Positions 373-64,000 of a DNA stretch of 64,000 bases are shown piece by piece. Below the pieces are notes generated by a model that made no database searches, was not told the DNA's origin, and saw only the letters and a list, made by a program, of their open reading frames with translations. The DNA is from Mobula birostris. Lineage: Eukaryota. The position numbers and the translations under genes were made by a program. Numbering within the stretch: the stretch's first letter is position 1; each line of letters begins with the position of its first letter. Where the stretch lies: the NCBI RefSeq assembly GCF_030028105.1, contig NC_092372.1, positions 151,968,058 through 152,032,057 of the forward strand, given 5' to 3'.

Positions 373-1046
373 TGTATACCTTTATTGGGAATGATGAATC
401 CCTTTGAATAATTTAACTAAATTCAAATGAATTCTCTTCGTATCCTTCTCAATTTTTTTTTGTTTCCTTTCATCACTGTGCTATTCACTTCAATTTTCTT
501 CCATCCTGCCTCAGAATAATTGCTACAGGGATCCCTTGTTTGTAACTTTGCCTTCTCCAGTACTCTCTACACACTAGCCAACATTCTGCTGCCATATCCT
601 AAGGCAAGCCCTGTCACACACTTTACCTGGATGATTGTGGAAAATGGCTGTGTCTGGTGCTTCGCAGTTAAACCTTATCCTCGTGTTTAAATCCTTCCTT
701 GCTTTTTCCCCTCCATATCAAAAATAATTTATTTTGAGCCCTATAATTACACTACCTAAGTTCTTATTTTGCCGATCTCTAAGGTATCCCTCATTTCACT
801 CAAATATTGGTGCTTCTTCTCAGCTGTTTCTGTAAGCTTGAAGATTGGATGGCTTGCAACCAAAAAATTAGATAATAATAGTCATATTGCCAACTGCACA
901 CATTTTCCAGCATTGCAAACTGGACTGTGTGCAAGACTGGAAATAGCTGACTTCCACTGAAAAACTCTGATAAAGAATAACTTCCATAAAATATACATTT
1001 TAATAGTAGTGCAAAACCAACAACGTCTTCAAAATACATGAAGAAT

Positions 1047-2321
1047 GTAGCTATCTCAGTTTTACATCTATTACAATGACTATCAACATTAGAAAAGATT
1101 TTAGAAAGTCTCTCCTTCATCAAATGATAACGATATACAATTTTAAATTGAATCAATGAATGGCTAGCACAAATTGAAGAAGAGTTAACCAACCTCAAAA
1201 TCCGCATCCAATCCTCCATCATAAAAGTCAAATTAAGTTCCTTTTCCCAATCCTGGTTAATCTTAGATAAAGGACGCTTATCCCATTGTAATAATAAATT
1301 ATAAATTCTTCCAATAGAACCCTTAATCAAAGGATTCATACTCATAATAGAATCTAACAGGTCCACCTCCAATATGTAAGGAAAATTACTTAAATATTTT
1401 TGTAAAAAATGTCTAACTTGAAGGTATTGCAGAAAGTGTGAGTATGAAGGAGAATATTTATCAATTAATTGTTCAAAAGACATCAATCTATCTTCTTTAA
1501 ATAAATCCAAAAAAGAATTAACACCTTTATTTTTCCAAAGCAAAAAAATTGGATCACTCAAAGAAGGCTTAAAAAAGTAATTTCGATAAATTAAACTACA
1601 AAGTTTAAATTTTTTAAGGTGAAAAAAATTGTGGAACTGGAGCCAAATATGTAAAGAAAATATGACACATATGTTTTGGTCTTGTTCTATATTGGAACAG
1701 TTCTGGAAGTCGTTTTTTTCAACAATTTCTAAAGCACTTAAAATTGATCTACAACCTAATAAATTAACTGTGCTTTTTGGAATAATTCCTCAAAATAGTC
1801 ATGGTATTTCTGTGTCCGACCAACATGTTATTGCATTTGTTACATCGATAGCTAGGAAGGCCATTTTGTTGAGGTGGTAGGATATATCAGCTCCCACTTT
1901 GTCACAATGGTTCTCTCAAGTGATGCTATGTCTTAGTTTGGAGAAAATTAGAAGTCAAACCTTTGAACCTTTATTTGATTTTGAGAAAAGATGGGGCTCA
2001 TTTGCTTGTTATTATCATTTGAGCTAATTGATATAATTTTTCCACTTATCTAATTGTAAATTTTTTAGTATATTTTCCTTTCTTGCTGGCAGTTTGATGT
2101 TTATTTTTAGAAGCTTTTTGTATTACGCATGACTCCGGGGTTGTACACCTAGTGGGTTCTTTGTTTTTCTCACTTTTCTGCTTAGTAGGTTTTTTTGGTT
2201 ATCACAAAATTTTTTTTCAATCTTTAAGATAATGTCTTTTTTGAGACATTGTAAGTGTTGAAACTTCAATGTACTCATGTTATTTTTTTCTGTATAACAA
2301 TAAAAAGATTTGAAAAGAAAG
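1047..2321. mobile_element. 5'-truncated, 5'-inverted (twin-primed) L1-clade LINE
   Basis: Perfect 16-bp TSD AAAATACATGAAGAAT at 1031-1046 and 2322-2337. The minus-strand ORF2 piece ends ...HCNRCKTEIAT and continues on the plus strand as THMFWSC. AATAAA at 2299 and an A-rich tail. Confidence 0.9.
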
Positions 2322-8559: not shown

Positions 8560-8870
8560 TCGTTTGTGAGAAAAGGGAAGGCCTTCTGCATTCGCCAGGT
8601 AGGGTCACGCAACACAACCCTCTCCATCCCTCCAGTTGTAAACTCCCACCCGCCTCTACATGCCCATCACAGATCCGTCAGTTTTGCCCCGCACAAAGAT
8701 GGTGTCCGCTGCGGGGGTTCTTTCACGTCCGCGCGGGCGATCGTTTCCGCTGCGAAGCGGAAATTGTACTCGGATGCGCGCGGAGTTGCAATGGCTGGCG
8801 ATGTGGTGGGGCTCACACTCATACACGGTAATGGGAGTGTCTGCTGTCTGCAGTAGATGGCGGGAGTGGT
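8560..8870 (+). promoter_or_regulatory. BAG1 CpG-island promoter / 5' UTR
   Basis: CpG-dense region around the ATG at 8791, with an ETS-like GCGGAAAT at 8757 and a YY1-like AGATGGCGG at 8855. Confidence 0.7.
8791..8827 (+). CDS. BAG1: BAG family molecular chaperone regulator 1, coding exon 1 (MAGDVVGLTLIHG)
   Basis: Strong Kozak context GCAATGG and donor G|GTAATG. Phase 1 matches exon 2. Full join 8791-8827,10120-10248,11850-11932,16095-16208,21525-21632,24204-24266,26912-26986 = 609 nt, 202 aa. Confidence 0.85.
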
Positions 8871-9129
8871 GACCTTCAGAGAGAAGAGTAACTACCGGGC
8901 CCGGGCAGCTCTTCTGCAGCATGATCGCAGAATCTGTCCTCTCCAGCTGTTAGCACAAGGAGCAGGGCGGCATGAATCTTTCCCCGTCGCTGGCTGCACG
9001 TTGGGTCCGGCCTCATCCACTGCCACCTAAATTGTTAATGTACAAACCAATCTGCATTTGAAGAAATTTTTGGTGGTGGGGTGGTGTGAACAGTCGTCAT
9101 AAAAAGAGAGGGGGAAATAAACAGTAAAT

Positions 9130-10119: not shown

Positions 10120-10248
10120 GTACTTCGAAACACAAGATCGAGATTTCAGCAGAACGGGAAGGTTGTGAGCCAACACTACAGGACATGGCAGCAGTGATTG
10201 CGCAAGTTACTGGGGTACCCCAGCAATTACAGAAACTAATTTTTAAAG
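10120..10248 (+). CDS. BAG1: BAG1 exon 2 (ubiquitin-like domain)
   Basis: TSKHKIEISAEREGCEPTLQDMAAVIAQVTGVPQQLQKLIFKG, AG/GT boundaries, 129 nt. Confidence 0.95.
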
Positions 10249-11849: not shown

Positions 11850-11932
11850 GTAAATCTCTGAAAGATATGGAACAACCATTGTCAGTTCTTGGTGTTAAAA
11901 ATGGCTGTAAAATAATGATGATTGGTAAAAAG
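11850..11932 (+). CDS. BAG1: BAG1 exon 3
   Basis: [31 protein letters not shown] boundaries, 83 nt. Confidence 0.95.
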
Positions 11933-16094: not shown

Positions 16095-16208
16095 AACAGT
16101 CCTGAAGAGGAAGCTGAATTAAAGAAGTTAAAGGATTTGGAAAAATCCACAGAACAATTATCCCATAAACTTGAAGAAATTAGCACTGAGCTGACAGGCA
16201 TTCAAAAT
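16095..16208 (+). CDS. BAG1: BAG1 exon 4
   Basis: [47 protein letters not shown] boundaries, 114 nt. Confidence 0.95.
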
Positions 16209-21524: not shown

Positions 21525-21632
21525 GGGTTCTTAGCCCATGATCTCCGATCTTCTGCATTAAGCAAGTTAGAGAAGAAAGCGAAAAGCATATCTGAACAGT
21601 ATATGAAGTTTCTTGAACAGATTGATGCAATG
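21525..21632 (+). CDS. BAG1: BAG1 exon 5 (BAG domain)
   Basis: GFLAHDLRSSALSKLEKKAKSISEQYMKFLEQIDAM, CAG/GTGGGT boundaries, 108 nt. Confidence 0.95.
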
Positions 21633-23329: not shown

Positions 23330-24080
23330 TCAAAAATGATCTGATGGGTAATTGGTGCTGTTTTGGATCGCAAGGAAGTTTACCTAAGACAAGGTACAGA
23401 TTGGTTGGAGAGTAGGGTGGAACCTTAGCAGATGTAATTTAATTATGACAAGTCCAGGGTGATGGATTTTGGGAAGTCAACTAGTAAACGGTAGAGCACA
23501 AAGGAATATTGAACAGAGAGACATTGGGGTTCAAGTCAATAGTTCCCTGAAAGTAGCAACATTGATTGATAGGGTAGTGAAGGCAGTATATGGCATGTTT
23601 GCTTTCATACGTTAGGGCATAGAATATAAGAGCTGGGATGTTATGTTGCAACTTTATAAGAGTTAGGCATATTGTGTGCTGTTCTCGTTGCCACACTAAA
23701 GGAAGTACGTGACTGTGCCAAAGAGAGAGTACTCACCAGGCAGCTGCCTGGATTGGAGGACTATTATATGGAGAAATTTGATAAGCTGGGCTTGTTTTCC
23801 CCAGACGAAAGGAGTCTGAGGGTTGTACTGATGGAAGTTTATAGGATTTTGACAGCCGTCAGTATTAGAGGGGATTTGGGGGATGTTTTTTTTAAAAACA
23901 CAATGTGTTATTGATATGAAATGTGCCAAACAAGAATGTGGTGGAATCAGATGCGTATACAGCATTTAAGTAGACACTTATATAGTCAAGATACAGGATA
24001 TGGCCCTAATGTGGGATAATGAGATTAGGGGAGGACATTGTGGGCAGAAGGGCTTTTTTTCTGTTCTGTGCAACTCTGAA
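23330..24080 (+). mobile_element. CR1 LINE 3' fragment
   Basis: Decayed RT C-terminus and CR1 tail TTGTGGGCAGAAGGGC. Confidence 0.75.
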
Positions 24081-24203: not shown

Positions 24204-24266
24204 AGTTTGCCTGACGACTTTACTGACTGTAGACACAGAAGAAAAGGTATAGTAAAGAATATACAG
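24204..24266 (+). CDS. BAG1: BAG1 exon 6
   Basis: SLPDDFTDCRHRRKGIVKNIQ, CAG/GTGAGA boundaries, 63 nt. Confidence 0.95.
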
Positions 24267-25408: not shown

Positions 25409-26911
25409 AGAAAAAATGCTAGTTGGAATTCACAATAGCATCTGCAACTGAGAGGTTTGTACGTACAGGAAATGGCCATTGGAATATTTTCAAAATCCAC
25501 AATATTCAAATTTATATATTTACTGTTATGTGGGCAGTGTACGTTGCTGGCAAGACTAGCATTAGTTCCAAATTGTCCTTGAGAAGTCACTTTGCAGTCC
25601 TTCTGGTGACAGTGGCATGGGATGGAATTCCATGAACCAAACCCAATAATGAAGGAATGCAATATTTTTGCAAGTTGAAATTGCATGTGGTTTAGAGGAG
25701 AACCAGTTGTGTATGGTGTTCTCATGTGCCTGTTGTCTGTGGCACTTCGGCTGTTGGAATTTGTGTCAAAAATTTAAAGTAGAAGGAAAAACTATTGGTT
25801 TGGATTTCTTGGCTTGGTGGGGGGCAGGGAAGATCAAAGAAATGAACTTAAAAATGATACGAGAGTGAAGGAAATTAGAAGATGTTTGGAATATTTAATT
25901 GAAAGAACAGAAAGAGGAGACTGTTTTTAAACATAAATTTAGGATTAATTCTGTAAGTTTAGAAAAATGTGATAACAGAATCCTTGGAATATGGAAAAGA
26001 TATGATATGAAATTTCCTGATTGGGTGAATTAAGTCAAAATAGGTTTCTTGTTTGTAATTATCTTTTCTGCAAATCCAGATACATCCTACATATTTTAAG
26101 TGCCATGATGTCTGGTTTGTAAGCTAATTTTCATCTCCAGATACAAATAACAAAATCTCTGTGGCCATAATCACTATAATTTGAAGTGTCTTGTGTTTAA
26201 GCACATTGTAAAATTTTGATGTTTCTTGTAGTAAATATTAATTTGCACTTTAGTTATAACTCAAATAATCAAGAGATCTTACATGTCAACTGTGAGATGG
26301 AAGATGAGGAAGTTTTGCAATTTTACCATCTATCATCATCCATGTATCTGGATACTTCAAATTTGCTGCACTTACCACACTGACACCTAGTAGGTTTATT
26401 ATTTGATATGACTCAGAGTAACCTGTTTCCCAATTCATAACACAAGATCTCTGCATTAGAATATATTCAGTGGGTAAGTACAGGACACCAGAGGAAATAA
26501 GTACTCCCCTGAATTCACCTACTTCTCAAGCTCAAGTTACATATTCCCACTACTTCTGTACTCATCCCAAACAGCAAAACTTATATAGCAAGGCGTTGTT
26601 ATTGGCTTAAGAGGAACAGAAAAAAAAGTGTTGTTATTAAATCTGCCATGCATTGCCTAGAAATGGTAGGGGGAGTTCTGGCAACAGAATGGCATTGAAA
26701 TTTATGGACTAGTGCATTTGTTGACTAATTAGGAATATAATTGAACTGGTATTCCTAGCATGTTATAAGTCAGTAATACTAAATTTATTTGACCTCTTGA
26801 AAATTTTGTTCCCTGGCTACCAATAATATATTTTGTGTTAATCTTAAAAAAATAGTGAATAAAGATATCTCAATGATTTTTTTTGATGTATGACTTTTTT
26901 TTTGGCAACAG

Positions 26912-26986
26912 ACTCACTTGGCTCGTTGTGACATCATTGAAACACACATTGCACAGGAACTAGAGAAACTTCAATCAAAGGGTTAA
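26912..26986 (+). CDS. BAG1: BAG1 exon 7 (terminal; stop supplied by an inserted CR1 tail)
   Basis: THLARCDIIETHIAQELEKLQSKG*, with acceptor TTTTTTTTTGGCAACAG. Confidence 0.9.
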   Translation, partial: THLARCDIIETHIAQELEKLQSKG

Positions 26987-27050
26987 AGGGTCAGCACAAC
27001 TTTGTGGGCAGAAGGGCCTGCACTGTGCTGCACTCTAATATAGTCTTAAA
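26981..27050 (+). mobile_element. About 70-bp CR1 3' tail inserted in the BAG1 last coding exon
   Basis: TTGTGGGCAGAAGGGC (27002-27017) is identical to the CR1 tail at 24038-24053. It is followed by orphaned codons AAC TTT GCC CTT GCT AAC TGA (27054-27074). Confidence 0.8.
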
Positions 27051-27169
27051 AAAAACTTTGCCCTTGCTAACTGACTGTATAAAAATAACATAATAGAACA
27101 AACCAATCCACAAAACATAAATTATTACTTACATTATTTTGTATATAAATTAAGAGTAGAACACTTTGC

Positions 27170-40450: not shown

Positions 40451-40686
40451 TTCTATGTACTGATCCAGACTCCACATTCACCCTTTTTGTACTTGTTCAT
40501 AACAAATATTCAACATTTAAAAAAAAATCTGATACACCATTTAGACTTAAATGAAAAGCAACTTTCCCCAAATTTGTACCGGGATATATGTTACATGTTC
40601 TGGAGGCACTGAAGCAAAATCCTACAGATCCCATGCTTTTTAGCGTGCATATAATTTCCAAAAGATTTGACATATACTTGCAGTAC

Positions 40687-40861
40687 CTAATATATAGCCG
40701 TAGGGTGTCAGCACCCGAGAGGCAAAGTAATTCCTCGCTCCTAGAAGATCTGTCAGAGCATTCTTAACTTTGCCATAGAGAGATTCATCTACTAAGCTTT
40801 CAAGTGAACGTCCTGGTGTGAAAAATGATTTTACCCGATACTTGGGAGGAAGACTGGGACC
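40687..40861 (-). CDS. FASTKD3: FASTKD3 coding exon 3
   Basis: GPSLPPKYRVKSFFTPGRSLESLVDESLYGKVKNALTDLLGARNYFASRVLTPYGYIL, AG/GT boundaries, 175 nt. Confidence 0.95.
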
Positions 40862-41594
40862 CTGTTGAGAAACAGCAATAGTTTATTTGTATATCCAAAG
40901 TGCCATTACACAACTGTTAGGTTATTGCAATAAAGAACAATCCCATTGCCACAAGCTAAAAACTTTTAGACCACAATTTTATCAGTATATATAATTAGTT
41001 CTTATAAGATTTGTACTAACAGCACATAATGTTATAAAATGGTACACTGTGAAAACCCCAAAATGTTACAGAATATATACGTCCATTAAAAACTACCGCT
41101 CTGTAAGTGCTTTGGGCAGCATTCATCGATCTTTGTGTTGCAGCACAAGGGAAAGAGCAAAAACTGTTGAATTTTAAGCTGAGATTTTTAGCTTCTATGC
41201 TAGCTACCAAAGATTTTCCATTCCTCATTTTCACCATCCCTTCTGATCCGTAATGAACACTCATGAATTCTGACACTGATATGACTTTGAACTCTTCTTC
41301 CTCTGCACCTATTTCTTGGTCCAGCAGATTCAGATCTACTTTTCCAACCTCTTCCAGTACATGTTTGACTGCATTCATGTTGCTGCATGAACTCATGCAG
41401 AACTTCTCACTTCTGTTGTTTCTACCTTGTTCTTACCTACACATGGTCCCTCTTGGACTCTTCCCTCTCTTGATTCTTGCATATCTCAGGTGATAAGCTA
41501 GCCCACAAATTATGCTTTCTTTACCCTACCACCCAGAGTATTAACTTTACATGTATAAGAAAAATAACAGATATTTAACGAAAACGTTAGATAC

Positions 41595-41680
41595 CTCATA
41601 CATTCGGCACTCTAGTTTCATCGTCATGAACAGCTGGGTTAGCTGGGCAAGAACAAACTTGTCTAGTCCATTTCCTTGGG
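41595..41680 (-). CDS. FASTKD3: FASTKD3 coding exon 2
   Basis: AQGNGLDKFVLAQLTQLFMTMKLECRMYE, AG/GT boundaries, 86 nt. Confidence 0.95.
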
Positions 41681-41906
41681 CTTTAGTGAAAATAGAAAGC
41701 AGTAAAATTAAAATTATCAAGCCAAATGAAAAATATCATTAATAACAGTACTGTTTTTATAAAGTCAAACTGTCCTAAAATCAAATGTCAATGGCCAGCA
41801 AAGAGAAGTTCACCAGGATGTTGTTTGGATTGTTGAGTACCAGCTAGAAGGAGGGGTTTTCTAATAAAAGTTCAAAGTAAATTTTATTATCAAAGTACTT
41901 ATATAC

Positions 41907-43103
41907 CAGCGGTCCCCACTCACCGGGCCGCAAAGCATGCGCTACCGGGCCGTGAGGAAACGATATGATTTGGCGATATGAGTCAGCTGCACCCTTCCTC
42001 ATTCCCTTTCACGCACTGTTGAGCTTGAACGCACGCGAGGTCATTATCCGCACATCATCCATTTCAGCGCAGGAAGGAGATCAACTCCTCGAGCTGGCGA
42101 ATGACGGCGGGATGAAAAGTATGTTTGACATAACATCTCTGCCGGCATTCCGGATCAAAGTCAAGGCTGAATATCCTGAGATAGCCATGAAAGCACTGAA
42201 AACGTTGTTTCCAACATATTTCTGCGAAGCGGAGTTTTCTGCAATGAATGCAACGAAAACTAAATTGCGGAATAGACTGGACATAAGGGACCCCCTTCGA
42301 GTATCGCTGTCTCCCATCACCCCTCGATAGGACTGTCCTGTTGCAGGGAAACAAGCCCAGGTATCCCACTGATTCAGCGATATTGGTGTGTTGCAATGAT
42401 TTTATATGTTCATACGGGGAAAATATGCGCTGTGTGTTTAATATCCAAACGTTACTTAAAATGTTATGATGCTATTGATGTACTTATATAACCATATAAC
42501 AATTACAGCACGGAAACAGGCCACCTCTGCCCTTCTAGTCCGTGCCGAATGCTACTCTCACCTAGTCCCACCGACCTGCACTCAGCCCATAACCCTCCAT
42601 TCCTTTCCTGTCCATGTACCTATCTAATTTTTCTTTAAATGATAATATCGAACCTGTTTCTGCCACTTTTACTGGAAGTTCGTTCAACACTTACTTCAAG
42701 CTCCCCTGTCCTCACTTGATAATTGACTTGTCACTGTATTCATGCGAGGAAAATATGCTCTGTGTGTTTCATATTAAATTCGTTAGATAAACCCTTTTAG
42801 AAACGAAACAGAGTGTATTAGCCACTTATCACCGCTATTCCGGTCATGATTAACACCCCTCTCCCCCCGAACAGAATTGCCAAAATCGATTTGTGGGGGG
42901 GGGGGGGGGGGAATCGGCAGGCGCACGCATGTGCACTGGTGCCCGTGCAAGGCTTCATGGTCATTGTAGTCTTTCTCGGGGTAAACACAACATATTTGAC
43001 TGCTACGTTGGCAATCCTCCTCCCCGCCCCCCGGTCGGCTGGTCCACAAGAATATTGTCAATATTAAACCGGTCCGCAGTGCCAACAAGGTTGGGGACCC
43101 CTG
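41907..43103 (+). mobile_element. Composite non-autonomous hAT (Charlie/Buster-type) element
   Basis: TIRs CAGCGGTCCCCA / TGGGGACCCCTG and an 8-bp TSD TTATATAC/GTATATAC. Transposase C-terminal piece EYPEIAMKALK..FPTYFCEAEFSAM..TKTKLRNRLD. Confidence 0.85.
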
Positions 43104-45120
43104 GTATATACCACCCCGAGATTCATTTTCCTGTGGGCATCCTCAGCAAACCTATAGAACAGTAACTATAAGAGGATCAATGAAAGATCAACCAGAGTGC
43201 AAAAGACAACAAGCTGTGCAAATACTAATATCAATAAATAGTAATAAAAAATGAGAACATGAGACAGTGCATAAAGAGTCCTTAAGGTGAGGTCATTGGT
43301 TGTAGGAACATTTCCACGACGGGGCAAGTGAGTGTAGGTGACAGTGGCTGAGACAGCAAAAGTTTGAAGGATCTACAAGGCAACTTTTTTTAAAAATCAG
43401 AGTGGTAAGTGCCTGGAACACACTGCCAGGAGAGATGCTGGAAGCAGATACAACAGCAACATTTAAAAGGTATTTAGCCAGGCTCACGAACATGCAGGGG
43501 ATGGGGGATCTCCTGAATCAATAGTAGGTAGATGGGATTATATTAAACTTGCATCATTGTCAGCACAAGGACAGGCCCTTCTGCCCACGATGCTTGTGCT
43601 AACAATGGCCTGTTCTTGTGCTGTACTCTTCTATGTTCAAGTTGTTAGCTGGAGAGGGTGAAGAAAATTTGAAGTTTCCTGCCTCCTTCCTACAGGTGAG
43701 TTTGTGGCCTTACTCATAACAGATCGTTTATCCACTTCTTCGTCCATCAACCCTCCCTACCCTCGAGGCAACTTGAAACTAGTTAGTTTTCCCTCTCTTC
43801 CCATTCTTATTAAAGGTATTGGATCTTCCTTCCCTGGGTGTTTCCTGTATTTTGTGTTCTTATTCATGGAAATAAAAAAAAGTTAAACTAGGAGTATCTG
43901 CGCAGGAAGATGACTCTCAGGGTTGTATTTGGTACTTTAACAAACAAGTTTACTTTGAACTTTGGAAAGGTGGGATTTATGTCTGGTGCCAGTGGAAGTG
44001 GCTGAGGTAAATGAGGAATTTGCATTTGTGTTTACCAAGGAAAAGGATGTTGACAGAGATCAGTGAGAGGCATGTTGATATTCAGAAGGAGGAGGTGTTG
44101 AAACACTTGAATAACATTACTTTGATATCAGTTTCCTAAATTTTGGACATACTTCCTCTTTTTCTTTTTCACTAAGCTTACAAAATCTCTTGTCATCCAA
44201 GGTCACAAATCTTACCATCCTGATCTTTCATCTTCAGAGGATGATGCTGCTCATGGATTTTAACCAGCTGTGGGTTTACTCAATAACTAGTGTTCCAAAT
44301 CTACTCTCTTTAGTTCCTGATGAATACTGTTGTAATTAGCCCTCCTGAAGTTTAGCATCTCTTCCCCCTTCCCTCCACCACCCTCTCCCCCTCCCGTCAA
44401 GTCTTATTCATATCCGTAACCATCTTAAATCATATTATCACTACTCCCAAAATGATTTTCCACTGAAACTTCAAACATCTATTCAGGCTCATTTCTCAAT
44501 ACAAGGTCTAATATATTCACTCATTTTCTAGCCCCATATCCTCCCAGTACCTTCCCCTCTCCTCAACCACCTTCCACAAAAGCACTACTATCTGCTGGAA
44601 TATTGTTTCAAGTCTGTCTCTTGCTGAAATGTCCAGCAATTAAATACATTCCTAAAGAACAAAGCAAAGTTGCATTATACCAAAACAAATTTTTCAATTT
44701 TTCCAGTTTACCACAATTTTCAGAATTACTCTCCCTTCCAAATTAAGTAGCACATGCATTTTAGTAATATGACTTTGTCATAGCAAGATCACTCAATCCT
44801 TTGGGTAGGGTAGGGAGAGTGGAATCAATAGCAGGAGAAACCCAAGTCATAAAATCCACTAGATTGCAGAAAAAATCCACACCAAGTACTTTTTCAATGG
44901 TAGTAGTAACCGCAAAGTACAACTGTGCATCTTAATCAGGATTGGGACAAACTTACAAGCCTTCCAAAAAATCTCCAATAATTTAATGATCAAAATGTTA
45001 CTTTACATTTATAATCTGAAATAGTTCATATTCCACAGAGGCATAAATTAATAAAAGAGCACTTCGAACCAGAAAGGTAAGCAAGATTGGAGAAGTTTGT
45101 AACTACACAAATAGACTCAC

Positions 45121-46564
45121 CTTCTAGCAGCTGCAGAAAGTAGGGACTAAAAACCTTGGATACAAAGTTCACAGGAAATCGTCCTACTAGTATACAGGAA
45201 TGAAGCAGATCCAGCAGAGTACGAGGCTGAAATTGGGAAAACCGGTCCCTTAATAGGCTTTCAATCTTTCGAAACAACTGACCTGCATTTGGAGGCAAAT
45301 AATTTAACCGGCCAAATGGTACTATTTGTAAGGCAATTTCTTTGGTTGTAAAGTTGTCTGAATTGTAAACAAAACTCTCAGCAACTGCATCAAATATGGG
45401 TGGTGAAAGGATGCGTAGCTGGTTGCAATATTGCATTACTTTACTGATTGCTTCAGGCTGCATGACAAAGGCTTTTTTGGGGATATTGCGTTCCAGGGCA
45501 TCAATAAAAAAACGGTCACTGAGTCCAAAGCACATTAGAGCGTTCAGTACTGGTACGAGCTCCTGGTCTGAGAAATGAGGAACGTGTCGCACTGAATGCT
45601 TACAGAGACTAATTACCAAAGGAATTGCCTGGGTTTGCTTGAGAACAACCATTGCATTGAGTATGTCACTTTTGGCTTTATGACTCAGCCTTGAAGCTAA
45701 ATGAAGTAAACAGGAATTCATTTTGTTTAGCAGCTCTTGGTAATTTCCTCCTTCTCCCACACCAGCCGCCAGCAGGTTATAAACCATTATGAATTCTTCA
45801 GGTGTCCAGATATCCATTTTCACTCCTTGAATTTGCTCCATTATTTGCTTAAGTATTTCAGATCTCGGGCCCTCCAATTCCAGAAAGGCCTTGCCCAGCA
45901 AACACAAGTCCTTAATGAGCATCTGACCTTTGTCAAGCCTCTCCCGGCTTTCAGACAACAATCTCATCATGAGGGTGCTCTGTGGGTCCACGTACAATTG
46001 GACACAAGCACACAGTGCAGTAGCCAGTGCTCGAATGCTCAGCCTCTCTGACTCTTGGTCGAACTGGAAGCACAATGCCTTGACTGTTTCATTCTCCAGC
46101 AGTACTGCAGGGTTTCTCAGCCCACTGTCATCTTTTTCAACCTGTGATATTCTAAGCAAGGCTGAAGCAGCCATTTTGTCTGTAATGCACTTCGATGATT
46201 TCAGCAGTTTAAAAATCTGTTTGGCAGTTTTACTATCGTTCAATGTTTTTAAAAACTCCTCTTCGAAAGAGGACTGCTCCTGTTCGCTGCTCATTTCAAT
46301 GCTGCCCCCTGCATCTCCATGGAGACACACTGTCCCTGGAGTGGAACCAGGCTGATCTCTGACTGCACTGTGGTATCCTTTATGAGGGATACATTGATGG
46401 TATATCTTCAGATATCCTTTTGATAAAATCTGGCCATATTGTGGATACAAAACTTTGTTGAAGTTTTTGCAAGGGTAAAATTTCCATTTCACAATTTGTA
46501 AGATGTTGCAAGTATGAAATTTAGATGAAACGTAATTAAAGAGTCTTAATAAATCCAACGCCAT
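45121..46564 (-). CDS. FASTKD3: FAST kinase domain-containing protein 3, mitochondrial; large first coding exon
   Basis: ATG 30 nt into the exon (acceptor TTTTTTACAG at 46594) and donor AG|GTGAGT at 45120. Helical-repeat/FAST region (PFGRLNYLPP, FPVNFVSKVFSPYFLQ). Join of 6 exons = 1989 nt, 662 aa. Confidence 0.95.
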
Positions 46565-46844
46565 AGCAACTTGAGGAATTTTATTTCAGTGTCCTGTAAA
46601 AAAGAAGGGGAAAATGTGATTTAGGAAGAGCCTAAGGTTTTTACTCACTTGTACTGCAGTAATAATTTTCAGCTATTTTTAAGAAAATCAAAAACATGAG
46701 TACAAAAAGCACCTTCTAAATATTCCATACAATTTGTTCAATGATTCTAATTAAATAATTTTCCACAGAACCTTTATCACCAAAAATTACAATGCTAGTT
46801 GTACAATTGATGTTGATGAATACAGAATGAATAAGCTGGCCAGC

Positions 46845-50967: not shown

Positions 50968-51501
50968 GGGTGGGGGATGGGAAGGAGGACGAGCTGGCAG
51001 GTGATGGGTGAAACCAGGTGAGCGGGAGGTTGAGAGGGTGGGGGATGGGAAGGACGAGCTGGCAGGTGATAGGTGAAACCAGGTGAGCGGGAGGTTGAGA
51101 GGGTGGGGGATGGGAAGGACGAGCTGGCAGGTGATAGGTGAAACCAGGTGAGCGGGAGGTTGAGAGGGTGGGGGATGGGAAGGACGAGCTGGCAGGTGAT
51201 AGGTGAAACCAGGTGAGCGGGAGGTTGAGAGGGTGGGGGATGGGAAGGACGAGCTGGCAGGTGATAGGTGAAACCAGGTGAGCGGGAGGTTGAGAGGGTG
51301 GGGGATGGGAAGGAGGACGAGCTGGCAGGTGATGGGTGAAACCAGGTGAGCGGGAGGTTGAGAGGGTGGGGGATGGGAAGGACGAGCTGGCAGGTGATAG
51401 GTGAAACCAGGTGAGCAGGAGGTTGAGAGGGTGGGGGATGGGAAGGACGAGCTGGCAGGTGATAGGTGAAACCAGGTGAGCGGGAGGTTGAGAGGGTGGG
51501 G
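50968..51501. repeat. 65-bp G-rich minisatellite, about 8 copies
   Basis: Unit GGGTGGGGGATGGGAAGGACGAGCTGGCAGGTGATAGGTGAAACCAGGTGAGCGGGAGGTTGAGA. Confidence 0.95.
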
Positions 51502-58244: not shown

Positions 58245-59545
58245 TGTGGTCAGCCCGTGTAGCAGTTGATGAGGCAGAGTCTGGATTGAAGCACAAGGAG
58301 ATGGTTGGGGCTATCCAGCTAGGCTGCCAGGGACTTGGATGGACAACCCACATCTTCTACAGGTAAGGAGCGCCGTGACGTTGTAACACAAGAGGTACGA
58401 GAGGTAGAAGAGCAGAAGAGGTTAGCTAAAACAGCTGGCCTGGCCAAACAAGGGGCTTGGACCCGATGGGAAAGTGTTGAATGACGACATCTATCTTGGA
58501 ATGTTCTGTGGCAGATGGAACCGCTCTGCATTTCTTTTCTATGCAGAGCAGCGTACGATCTGCTCCCAACACTTGCCAACCTCAGCACCTGGTATGAAGA
58601 TAAGACAGACAGGTGTGCTGCTTGTGGTGACAAGGGAACACTTCAACATATTTTGAGTGCATGCAGAGTCAATCTTTCCAGCGGCATGTACACTTGGAGA
58701 CATAACAATGTTCTCAAAGTTGTAACAGAAGCGGTTGAGCAGAGAGTACTGCAGCACAACTTATCTCATGCCCCATGCTGCACAGAACATCGCATATCAT
58801 TTGTGAAAGAAGGCTCCAAGTCAAGGTTGTACAGCGCAGGCTCACGATCAAGCATACTTTCTTCAGCCAATGACTGGTGTGTCGAGGCCAACCTGGATGG
58901 GAAAGGCAGTTTCCCGGAGCAAATAGTTTCACCACATTGCGTCCAGATATAATTGTATGGTCTGACATCAGTAGAGAAGTGGTTATTGGTGAACTCACAG
59001 TCCCCTGGGAAGACAACATCGATGAAGCCCATGAGCGCAAGTTAACCAAGTATGCAGAATTAAGATCAGAGTGCAGAGACAGAGGGCGGAAGGTCTCATG
59101 CTATCGACTCGAAGTAGGCTGCTGTGGGTTTATTGCGTTCACTCTCCAGAAGTGGCTGCGTGACCTTGGCTTCACTAGAAGAGAGATCAAGTCAACCAGC
59201 AGGGCTGTAGCTGAGGCAGCAGAGAAAGGATCAGCATGGGTGTGGACCAAGTACGTCCAGAGGGGCAGATAGTCAGACAGTGTATACATATCTTGCAAAC
59301 CCTTCAGTAGTTGCATAGACACCTGAAGAGCAGACTATCTGTTGGATGGAAGTGACCAACAACTCTGATAGAGGCAGATGCCAAGTTTTTAAGCTCACCA
59401 GTGGGAGGTGGTGCTTTAGCACTGCTGGCCCACCACCTCGAGGGAGTCTTGATCATAAGCGGGCCGAAACTCCTGAAGACAGGTGGCAGATCAACTGATG
59501 ATCCCACTGGTGATAGCACAGGACAGTTAACATCTTAGTCCAAGT
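58245..59545 (+). mobile_element. 5'-truncated R2-group non-LTR retrotransposon (HERO/NeSL-like) with restriction-like endonuclease
   Basis: CCHC knuckle CAAC...HILSAC, YTWRHNNVL, and PD-(D/E)xK nuclease RPDII...ELTVPWE...K..KY...LEVG. Stop at 59270-59272, followed by a structured 3' UTR. Confidence 0.85.
59395..59513 (+). ncRNA. Structured RNA element: kink-turn plus pseudoknotted hammerhead-like core
   Basis: Pairings visible by eye: 59395-59406/59502-59513 (12 bp), 59433-59438/59481-59486, 59442-59447/59469-59474 and 59449-59454/59489-59494. Motifs GUC, GAAA and CUGAUGA. Confidence 0.55.
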
Positions 59546-59876
59546 GTATTTTTTAACTCTATTCTGTGATTTATTAGTTAATATTATTATAATATTTATT
59601 ACTATTGCCAAGTGTGTTTTTAAATGTTGCTGCTGGAAGAAATAATTTCCCACTCTGGATCAATAAAGTAATTATTATTAAGTACAGCTTTGAGTTCAGC
59701 AGTAGCTTTATTGTTGTTGGACAAATCACAGGTGGAGACGAGTCAGTGGGATAGGACACCTGGCAACAACAACCTCTAGTTCAATGTCAGCAAAACTAAA
59801 GAGCTTGCTTGAAGCAACACACATCAAAGTTGCTGGTGAACGCAGCAGGCCAGGCAGCATCTGTAGGAAGAGGTGC

Positions 59877-59912
59877 AGTCGACATTTCAGGCCGAGACCC
59901 TTCGTCAGGACT
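59877..59912 (-). ncRNA. Minimal type I hammerhead ribozyme motif (Penelope tail)
   Basis: AGUC CUGACGA AGG-gucucgg-CCU GAAA UGUC GACU on the minus strand. Confidence 0.7.
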
Positions 59913-60780
59913 AACTGAAGGAAGAGTGAGTAAGGGATTTGAAAGTTGGAGGGGGAGGGGGAGATCCAAAATGATAGGAGAAGACAGGAGGGGGAGGGAT
60001 GGAGCCAAGAGCTGGACGGGTGATTGGCAAAAGGGGATACGAGAGGATCATGGGACAGGAGGTCCGGGAAGAAAGACAAGGGGTGGGGGGGACCCAGAGT
60101 CTGCGTTGGGTCTCGCCAATATATAAAAGGCCACATCGGGAGCACCGGACGCAGTATATCACCCCAGTCGACTCACAGGTGAAGTGTTGCCTCATACTGC
60201 GTCCGGTGCTCCCGATGTGGCCTTTTATATATTGGCGAGACCCAACGCAGACTGGGAGACCGTTTTGCTGAACATCTACGCTCTGTCCGCCAGAGAAAGC
60301 AGGATCTTCCAGTGGCCACACATTTTAATTCCACATCCCATTCCCATTCTGACATGTCTATCCACGGCCTCCTCTACTGTAAAGATGAAGCCACACTCAG
60401 GTTGGAGGAACAACACTTTATATTCCGTCTGGGTAGCCTCCAACCTGATGGCATGAACATCGACTTCTCTAACTTCCGCTAGGCCCCACCTCCCCCTCGT
60501 ACCCCATCTGTTACTTATTTTTATGCACACATTCTTTCTCTCACTCTCCTTTTTCTCCCTCTGTCCCTCTGAATATACCTCTTGCCCATCCTCTGGGTCT
60601 CCCCCCCCCCCCCCCGTCTTTCTTCCCGGACCTCCTGTCCCATGATCCTCTCGTATCCCCTTTTGCCAATCACCTGTCCAGCTCTTGGCTCCATCCCTCC
60701 CCCTCCTGTCTTCTCCTATCATTTTGGATCTCCCCCTCCCCCTCCAACTTTCAAATCCCTTACTCACTCTTCCTTCAGTT

Positions 60781-60816
60781 AGTCCTGACGAAGGGTCTCG
60801 GCCTGAAACGTAGACT
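60781..60816 (+). ncRNA. Minimal type I hammerhead ribozyme motif (Penelope tail)
   Basis: AGUC CUGACGA AGG-gucucgg-CCU GAAA CGUA GACU, with a GUA cleavage triplet. Confidence 0.75.
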
Positions 60817-61019
60817 GCACCTCTTCCTACAGAAGCTGCCTGGCCTGCTGCGTTCACCAGCAAATTTGATGTGTGTTGCTTGAATTTCCAGCATCTGCAG
60901 AATTCCTGTTGTTTGAGCTTGCTTGAAGAAATCTTTGCCCAATTACCATCAACATATAACCAGAAGATCCAATACACGGCACCATTGTTGTACAGTACTA
61001 AGATAAGGCATTCTGCCTG

Positions 61020-62901: not shown

Positions 62902-63742
62902 TATCCCTGTAAGCGGAACAAGTGCTACACATGCCCTTACACTTCCTCCCTTACCACCATTCAGGGCCCCAAACAGTCCTTCCAGGTGAGGCTACACTTC
63001 ACCTATGAGTCGGCTGGGGTGATATACTGCGTCCCGTGCTCCCGATGTGGCCTTCTATATATTGGCGAGACCTGATGCAGACTGGGAGACTGCTTTGCTG
63101 AACACCTACGCTTTGTCTACCAGAGAAAGCAGGATCTTCCAGTGGCCATGCATTTTAATTCCACATCCCATTCCCATTCTGACATGTCATCCACAGCATC
63201 CTCTATTGTAAAGATGAAGCCACACTCAGGTTGGAGGAACAACATCTTATATGCCGTCTGGGTAGCCTCCAACCTGATGGCATGAACATCAACTTCTCTA
63301 ACTTCCGCTAATGCCCCACCTCCCCCTCGTACCCCATCTGTTATTTATTTTTATACACACATTCTTTCTCTCTCTCTCCTTTTTCTCCCTCTGTCCCTCT
63401 GACTATACCCCTTGGCCATCCTCTGGGTTCCCCCCCACTTGTCTTTCTTCCCGGACCTCCTGTCCCATGATCCTCTCGTATCCCCTTTGCCAATCACCTG
63501 TCCAGCTCTTGGCTCTATCCCTCCCCCTCCTGTCTTCTCCTATCATTTTGGATCTCCCCCTCCCCCTCCCACTTTCAAATCTCTTACTAACTCTTCCTTC
63601 AGTTAGTCCTGACGAAGGGTCTCGGCCTGAAACGTCGACTGTACCTCTTCCTAGAGATGCTGCCTGGCCTGCTGCGTTCACCAGCAACTTTGATATGTGT
63701 TGCTTGAATTTCCAGCATCTGCAGAATTCCTGTTGTTTGCGT
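62902..63742 (+). mobile_element. Penelope-like retroelement 3' part (same young subfamily as 59812-60914)
   Basis: CYTCPYTSSLTTIQGPKQSFQVR...VIYC..CSRCGLLYIGET, and a tail nearly identical to 60480-60914. Confidence 0.92.
63605..63640 (+). ncRNA. Minimal type I hammerhead ribozyme motif (best copy)
   Basis: Stem I AGUC/GACU, CUGACGA at 63609-63615, stem II AGG/CCU, GAAA at 63629-63632, palindromic ACGU stem III, GUC cleavage site at 63636. Confidence 0.8.
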
Positions 63743-64000
63743 TTTTAAAATGTTAAGTGTGTGTCTTCAGTCCTTTGTACTACAGTACTTTCTTGATGGT
63801 AGCAATGAGAAAAGGGCATGCCCTAGATTGTGAGGGCCCTTCCTTGGGCACTGTCTTTTGAAGGTGTCCTCAGTGGTGGGGAGGGTTGTGGCCACAATGA
63901 AGTTGGCTGAGTCTACAACCATCTGTGGCTCTTCCCATCCTGTGCATTGAAGTCTCCACACCAGGCAGGGATGCAACCTGTCAGGATGCTCTCCAAGGTA

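What the first reader, a model, noticed from the sequence alone, without database searches (positions are those of the whole stretch)
26972..27074. Retrotransposon tail inserted into the BAG1 coding sequence, displacing the ancestral C-terminus
Seen: the exon reads ...ELEKLQSK-G-TAA. About 70 bp matching the CR1 3' tail follows (16-nt exact match to 24038-24053), then an A-run and intact codons N-F-A-L-A-N-TGA (27054-27074). Known: human BAG1 ends ...ERLQSTNFALAE. Inference: a CR1 insertion supplied a new stop, replaced six conserved residues with one Gly, and left the old C-terminus as 3' UTR. The fossil codons are still intact, so the event may be recent or polymorphic. It is a natural test of whether the tail after the BAG domain is needed, and a good phylogenetic marker.
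Basis: partly seen in the sequence, partly recalled or inferred. Interest (0 to 1): 0.7.

Follow-up and report, generated by a model that had tools for sequence, protein, structure and literature searches.

The report
Old retrotransposon clipped stingray BAG1 tail
A 67-base scrap of a jumping gene sits in the last exon of the chaperone-helper gene BAG1 and supplies an early stop that removes a six-residue tail kept by almost all other jawed vertebrates; it is shared across manta rays and likely stingrays, so it is likely tens of millions of years old and probably tolerated rather than a new function.

Summary
The 3'-terminal ~67 nt of an abundant CR1-type LINE (26981-~27047) lies in the last exon of the single-copy BAG1 gene. 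It supplies GGT-TAA, so the protein ends ...LQSKG (202 aa). The old codons N-F-A-L-A-N-stop remain out of frame in the 3' UTR. Sawfish ends ...SKNFALAD; skates, electric ray, sharks and chimaera keep a six-residue tail, as do 139 of 156 vertebrate records with the usual last exon. Two Mobula and two dasyatid proteins end SKG, and contigs of five organisms up to ~6% apart in the UTR carry the insert. In the two most distant, the fossil codons decay at the UTR rate. The event therefore predates the devil ray/stingray split, probably Late Cretaceous. Most likely it was tolerated: the stop is in the last exon, and the lost residues lie beyond the part of helix 3 present in solved Hsc70-BAG1 complexes. 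A gained Lys-Gly C-degron is possible but weak, since the upstream Arg is missing. It is a clean order-level phylogenetic marker and a natural tail-less BAG1, but a known kind of event.

The parts
8791..8827 (+). BAG1 coding exon 1 (from ATG)
   Evidence: the spliced frame equals a named RefSeq BAG1 at all 202 residues
10120..10248 (+). BAG1 exon 2 (ubiquitin-like domain)
11850..11932 (+). BAG1 exon 3
16095..16208 (+). BAG1 exon 4 (BAG helix 1)
21525..21632 (+). BAG1 exon 5 (BAG helix 2)
24204..24266 (+). BAG1 exon 6
   Evidence: its 3' end is the loose end of spliced contigs at 26908
26912..26986 (+). BAG1 last exon, coding part, ending ...LQSKG-stop
   Evidence: single copy in the genome
26981..27047 (+). 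Inserted 3' end of a CR1-type LINE, sense orientation, extremely 5'-truncated (3' border uncertain by a few bases)
26981..26986 (+). Element-derived Gly codon and new TAA stop
   Evidence: 19 of 29 genomic copies carry TAA at this place
26987..27036 (+). Predicted 3' hairpin of the element, now in the 3' UTR
   Evidence: -24.9 kcal/mol, z -2.9; a hairpin of similar position in most of 29 copies; 26 nt of it deleted in organism D
27034..27047 (+). Degenerate 7-nt microsatellite end of the element
   Evidence: copies end in such repeats; organisms D and E keep letters closer to them at 27037, 27038 and 27043
27048..27055 (+). A8 run: likely host A-run or short target-site duplication plus slippage, not poly(A)
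   Evidence: 3 nt shorter in organism E; exact duplication not resolved
27054..27074 (+). Fossil ancestral codons N-F-A-L-A-N-stop, now untranslated
   Evidence: sawfish ends NFALAD; mutated in organisms D and E
24035..24053 (+).

Best explanation
A 67-nt 3' scrap of a CR1-type retrotransposon sits right after the Lys codon of ...LQSK in the only BAG1 gene and supplies Gly plus a stop; it likely inserted once in the ancestor of devil rays and stingrays and was likely fixed because losing the six-residue tail costs little. Shown here: the insert, its family, the new stop, spliced contigs running through it, its sharing across five organisms, the tail in outgroup proteins, and decay of the old codons. 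Inferred: target-primed reverse transcription that aborted after about 67 nt; no nonsense-mediated decay because the stop is in the last exon; intact Hsp70 nucleotide-exchange and proteasome-docking activity because only the protruding end of helix 3 is lost; fixation by drift or weak selection.
For: Family: of the 11 copies whose upstream DNA was translated, most run into LINE ORF2 remains, and one carries RVT_1 at E 1e-12. A hairpin plus microsatellite end is the 3' structure described for CR1 (PMC8665684, passages). Polarity: of 37 cartilaginous-fish records, 6 (4 myliobatiform species) end SKG, 30 keep a six-residue tail and 1 is a different splice form. Sawfish has the same NF as the fossil. 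Age: contigs bridge the insert in organisms A-E; differences are 0 of 793, 8 of 793 and 8 of 515 letters for A, B and C, and 6.3% and 4.9% in the UTR for D and E. The fossil has 1 substitution in 21 nt in both D and E against 1.3 and 1.0 expected at the UTR rate; E also has a 4-nt deletion at the old stop. The first 60 coding nt of the exon show 0 listed changes in D and E against 3.8 and 2.9 expected. Tolerance: Hsc70-bound BAG1 chains 1hx1_B and 5aqf_B align only up to residue 196 of 207, with ordered residues ending at model 192-196. The tail is a low-confidence extension of helix 3 (pLDDT about 61) and the SKG form folds with the same elements. Proteasome binding goes through the UBL domain (PMC12922752, passages). 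No second BAG1 copy compensates.
Against: The tail is strongly conserved elsewhere: 139 of 156 records with the usual last exon have exactly six residues, with N in 138 and L at position 4 in 133. That argues for some function and against pure neutrality. No functional or population data were available. For the two dasyatids and for all outgroups only proteins were seen, so the shared insert and the empty site are inferred there. In organism E, 4 of 20 differences were not listed and may fall in the Gly-stop codons. The target-site duplication could not be resolved. A 67-nt tail cannot exclude a SINE source sharing the LINE tail.
Confidence: 0.75

Rival explanations
1. The insertion created a Lys-Gly C-terminal degron: the new end would be bound by the CRL2-KLHDC3 ligase, shortening BAG1's half-life in these rays, and was kept for that regulation.
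For: KLHDC3 mainly targets -RG and -KG ends (PMC7458402, passages; PMC11568203, passages). [quoted passage not shown] All 6 SKG records keep Lys-Gly.
Against: The KLHDC3 degron needs an upstream Arg and structural accessibility, and all three natural cytosolic R__KG-ending proteins tested were not targeted (PMC8013793). The ray end has no Arg in its last 19 residues and is predicted helical up to residue 200 of 202. Keeping one Gly codon at 5-6% divergence is expected by chance.
Confidence: 0.1
2. The ancestral NLALAD/E tail binds an unknown partner or caps helix 3, and these rays carry a mildly harmful or compensated loss that was fixed in a small population.
For: Length and sequence are conserved from chimaera to mammals. 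The apparent frog exception is one isoform model whose sister model and congener keep the tail. Other exceptions lose only one or two residues.
Against: No role for the last six residues was found in the passages read (the deletion tested there is 47 residues). The allele has persisted in at least two families. The final residue varies among E, D and K.
Confidence: 0.13
3. One reading: a recent or still polymorphic insertion in one species, or an assembly artefact.
For: The fossil codons are almost intact in this genome, and the best copies are 96% alike over 50 nt. Contigs drop rare variants, so polymorphism was not measured directly.
Against: Present in five organisms and six independent-run spliced or transcript-like contigs plus one DNA run; the SKG end occurs in four named species of two families. 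P(at most one change in 21 nt) is 0.83-0.90 at 2.5-3.5% per lineage.
Confidence: 0.01
4. The ancestral tail is still made at low level, by stop readthrough or by splicing out the insert.
For: The fossil codons persist in this genome.
Against: The insert is 73 nt up to the fossil (1 mod 3), so readthrough gives an unrelated 18-residue extension. No joint skipping the insert was seen in 7 runs (contigs only). The one AG near its end is absent in organisms B-E (27043), and the fossil is mutated in D and E.
Confidence: 0.01

Closest known systems
CR1-clade non-LTR retrotransposons, including the shark and ray HER1 LINE / HE1 SINE pair (listed in PMC3747384, table passage)
   Same: 3' hairpin plus microsatellite end, no poly(A), heavy 5' truncation, very high copy number; longer copies carry a reverse transcriptase ORF.
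   Different: Only about 67 nt remain; the microsatellite is a 7-mer, not the avian 8-mer; no comparison with HER1/HE1 sequences was possible.
Transposon-derived stop codons and C-termini in last exons (general class, recalled knowledge)
   Same: An element fragment becomes the end of a coding sequence and the rest joins the 3' UTR.
   Different: This is a direct insertion into the coding exon, not exonisation by splicing; it adds one residue, and the displaced codons remain readable as a dated fossil.
Vertebrate BAG1 (UBL + BAG domain co-chaperone; PDB 1hx1, 5aqf, 1i6z, 9heu)
   Same: Pfam ubiquitin and BAG domains, seven exons, 93% identical to sawfish BAG1, same predicted fold.
   Different: Lacks the six-residue NLALAD/E tail and ends in Lys-Gly.
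Retroposon presence/absence markers in phylogenetics (recalled knowledge)
   Same: One shared insertion at one site marking a clade.
   Different: Can be scored from protein or transcript data alone (SKG versus SKN...).

Membership tests
BAG1 orthologue | UBL domain followed by a single BAG domain, closest to named BAG1 proteins | tested here: met
   the spliced frame equals P0057 at 202 of 202 residues
BAG1 orthologue | Single locus, no paralogue or retrocopy keeping the old tail | tested here: met
   all 6 matches (30 candidates scored) lie at this locus; DNA on each side of the insert is unique
CR1-clade LINE | 3' end joined to a reverse transcriptase ORF in longer copies | tested here: met
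   (RVT_1 in L009)
CR1-clade LINE | 3' hairpin followed by a microsatellite instead of poly(A) | tested here: met
   definition from PMC8665684 passages
CR1-clade LINE | Reverse transcriptase groups with CR1 rather than L2 or Rex1 in a tree or repeat library | not testable with these tools
   no repeat library held; the ORF2 C-terminal motif seen is recognised as CR1-like from recall only
CR1-clade LINE | Target-site duplication at the insertion | tested here: inconclusive
   A-runs on both sides fit a 3-bp duplication, but the right-hand run varies and no empty-site DNA was available
HE1-type SINE sharing the LINE tail | tRNA-derived 5' head | tested here: inconclusive
   the insert is too short to include a head; the translated copies mostly lead into ORF2
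KLHDC3 C-degron | C-terminal Arg/Lys/Gln-Gly | tested here: met
   ends Lys-Gly; consensus
KLHDC3 C-degron | Upstream Arg a few residues before the Gly | tested here: not met
   the nearest Arg is 20 residues from the end; requirement from PMC8013793
KLHDC3 C-degron | Unstructured, accessible terminus and KLHDC3-dependent turnover | not testable with these tools
   the model is helical to residue 200 of 202; turnover needs an experiment

The most novel reading that the evidence does not exclude
A retrotransposon scrap rewired BAG1 turnover in a whole order of rays: it removed a C-terminal motif conserved across jawed vertebrates and put in its place a Lys-Gly end read by a C-degron ligase, so the ray protein both reveals the tail's unknown function and shows a transposon creating a degron.
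Probability: 0.1. Interest if true: 0.7.

Novelty: new member of a known kind. Interest (0 to 1): 0.35.

Why it matters
It is a clean, dated case of a transposon inserting into the coding sequence of a conserved single-copy chaperone gene and becoming fixed. It shows that a tail kept in about nine of ten vertebrate BAG1 records can be lost for tens of millions of years. It gives a marker for the stingray/devil ray clade that can be read from proteins alone. It also points to a small open question, what the last six residues of BAG1 do, and supplies a natural variant to test. No report of it was found: none of the 25 papers listed (of 496 holding at least two of five terms) contains BAG1, and a manta genome preprint has no mention (its supplements could not be seen).

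Tried and rejected
Recent or polymorphic insertion: rejected. A-run as poly(A) tail: rejected, since copies end in a microsatellite. Readthrough or splicing restoring the old tail: wrong frame and no joints. Selected RNA hairpin in the UTR: 26 nt of it are deleted in organism D. BAG1 mRNA mobilised through the acquired CR1 hairpin: no retrocopy among 30 candidates scored. Independent tail loss in the frog Pelobates: one isoform model only. No listed run is on record as RNA; RNA status rests on the exon 6-7 junction seen in contigs of 4 runs (X1, X3, X9, X17), while for X19 and X20 the loose end was not displayed. No outgroup DNA with the empty site was found: both low-share runs turned out to carry the insert. 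Of 24 listed runs 7 different ones were laid. Paper searches for a role of the last residues gave nothing specific (listings; passages). A dated Dasyatidae-Mobulidae split was not found as a number. Earlier findings of this scan: none returned. No complex prediction was run, as no suitable partner chain was held.

Full report
Setting. The window is G000:C4:151968058-152032057 of a 4.0-Gb genome. Seven BAG1 coding exons were mapped at 8791-8827, 10120-10248, 11850-11932, 16095-16208, 21525-21632, 24204-24266 and 26912-26986, all with GT-AG borders. The spliced frame is 202 aa. It is identical to P0057, named Mobula birostris BAG1; it differs at 1 residue from Mobula hypostoma and at 11 from each of Hemitrygon akajei and Hypanus sabinus. 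Pfam finds ubiquitin and BAG domains. A skate BAG1 query gave 6 matches in the genome, all at this locus, from 30 candidates scored, and DNA on either side of the insert is unique.

Observation. The last exon reads ...ELEKLQSKG-TAA (26984-26986), and N-F-A-L-A-N-TGA follows at 27054-27074 in another frame. The gap is 73 nt, and such a codon run has a chance of about 6e-8 per position. The 16-mer at 24038-24053 recurs exactly at 27002. Human BAG1 ends ERLQSTNFALAE.

The insert. A genome search with 26981-27050 found 1554 candidates and scored 40; 30 loci were fetched, 29 of them non-self. Likeness begins at 26981 and does not extend into host DNA to the left. The copies share 22 to 1500 nt upstream with one another, the pattern of variable 5' truncation. 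Upstream DNA was translated for 11 of the 29; most hold LINE ORF2 remains, and L009 has RVT_1 at E about 1e-12. The insert folds into a hairpin (26987-27036, -24.9 kcal/mol, z -2.9), and the copies end in a 7-nt microsatellite. Hairpin plus microsatellite is the 3' structure described for CR1 (PMC8665684, passages). A LINE/SINE pair sharing a tail, HER1/HE1, is listed for sharks and rays (PMC3747384, table passage), and L2/CR1/Rex is the main LINE group in batoids (bioRxiv 10.64898/2026.10.27.761883, passage). The CR1 label rests on these features and on recall of the ORF2 motif; no tree was built. The stop came with the element: 19 of 29 copies have TAA at this place. The A8 run is therefore not poly(A); it fits the host's Lys/Asn A-run with a short duplication and slippage, which cannot be settled without empty-site DNA.

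Polarity. Of 37 cartilaginous-fish records held, 6 end SKG, all from the four myliobatiform species. Thirty keep a six-residue tail (sawfish NFALAD, skates NLALAD, electric ray NLVFTD, sharks, chimaera; one is an unnamed record clustering with skates), and one is another splice form. One member of a 16-member cluster was not listed. The sawfish shares the NF of the fossil, which differs only in the last codon, Asn for Asp. Among all 180 proteins held at that point, 156 have the usual last exon; 139 of these have exactly six residues after the SK-type anchor, 6 are the SKG rays, and 11 have 2-7 residues. Twenty-four records with other or partial ends were left out. Only the best 120 of 275 hits were listed.

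Age. Seven runs were laid, all as contigs. Single contigs bridge the insert in organism A (X1, X3: no differences), B (X9: 8 of 793 letters), C (X17: 8 of 515), D (X19: 22 letters and 38 gap letters) and E (X20: 20 and 11). In X1, X3, X9 and X17 the loose end at 26908 is the end of exon 6, so these are spliced. In a DNA run of B, two contigs span the left and right junctions. D and E differ from the window by 6.3% and 4.9% in the UTR. Each has one substitution in the 21-nt fossil (1.3 and 1.0 expected), E has a 4-nt deletion at the old stop and a shorter A-run, and D has lost 26 nt of the hairpin. The first 60 coding nt show no listed change (3.8 and 2.9 expected). The fossil is thus neutral DNA in a slowly evolving lineage. 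One of D's 22 and 4 of E's 20 differences were not displayed, so E's Gly-stop codons are unverified. With dasyatids and mobulids both ending SKG, the event likely predates their split. A time-calibrated tree puts the common ancestor of living pelagic stingrays, the group that includes devil rays, in the Late Cretaceous, with Dasyatidae branching earlier (PMC7614867, passages). 'Recent or polymorphic' is therefore rejected; contigs cannot show rare alleles, but polymorphism across two families is implausible.

How it works. Inferred: the element's reverse transcriptase primed at a nick just after the Lys codon and aborted after about 67 nt. The stop lies in the last exon, so the mRNA should escape nonsense-mediated decay (established knowledge), and spliced contigs exist. 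Human BAG1 chains solved with Hsc70 align only to residue 196 of the 207-aa skate protein, with ordered residues ending at model 192-196, so the tail is not needed for that complex. AlphaFold places residues 201-207 as a low-confidence extension of helix 3 (pLDDT about 61), and the SKG form has the same elements with mean pLDDT 90. Proteasome binding uses the UBL domain (PMC12922752, passages). The classic deletion that kills Hsp70 binding removes 47 residues (PMC2672009, passages). Tolerated truncation is the best reading (0.75); the insertion history itself I put near 0.95.

What argues against it. The tail's conservation from chimaera to mammals (N in 138 and L at position 4 in 133 of 139) suggests a function that nobody in the passages read has named. 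The new Lys-Gly end matches the two-residue KLHDC3 consensus, but it lacks the upstream Arg, is predicted helical almost to the end, and natural R__KG proteins were not degraded in a test (PMC8013793, passages). I give the degron 0.10 and a costly or compensated loss 0.13.

Verdict. A real, apparently unreported instance of a known kind: a transposon-derived stop codon fixed in a clade. All papers were seen as search listings or passages only; no supplements were read. Interest 0.35.

Noticed in passing
window 40643-46585, minus strand: A FAST kinase-domain gene lies downstream of BAG1, tail to tail: a 519-codon open stretch with FAST_1 (E 1e-22) and a further exon with FAST_2.
   Followed up: partly
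window 8660-8872, plus strand: Three upstream ATGs (8660, 8699, 8774) share one frame, out of frame with the BAG1 ATG at 8791, and their ORF overlaps it; possibly a translational brake. The N-terminal extension of the sawfish model resembles this region in a frame other than BAG1's.
   Followed up: partly
P0099, P0184 (Varanus, Elgaria); P0119, P0121, P0127, P0129, P0132 (Nothobranchius): Smaller independent trims of the BAG1 tail: two lizards end SKNMSE/SKNMAE (two residues shorter) and killifish lack the final acidic residue.
   Followed up: partly
window 50968-51501: Tandem array of 8.1 copies of a 65-nt unit, 97% matches.
   Followed up: no
window 59809-60884 and 62904-63744: A 283-nt inverted repeat at 97% and a perfect 60-nt inverted repeat (60098-60253) inside duplicated repeat fragments; looks like a recent local duplication with inversion.
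   Followed up: no
window 58485-58949, plus strand: Fragment with a weak zf-RVT match (E 2e-4, below the curated cutoff), probably another non-LTR element.
   Followed up: no
window 803-1789, minus strand: A 329-codon open frame with no Pfam match; looks like a LINE ORF2 C-terminal part by eye.
   Followed up: no
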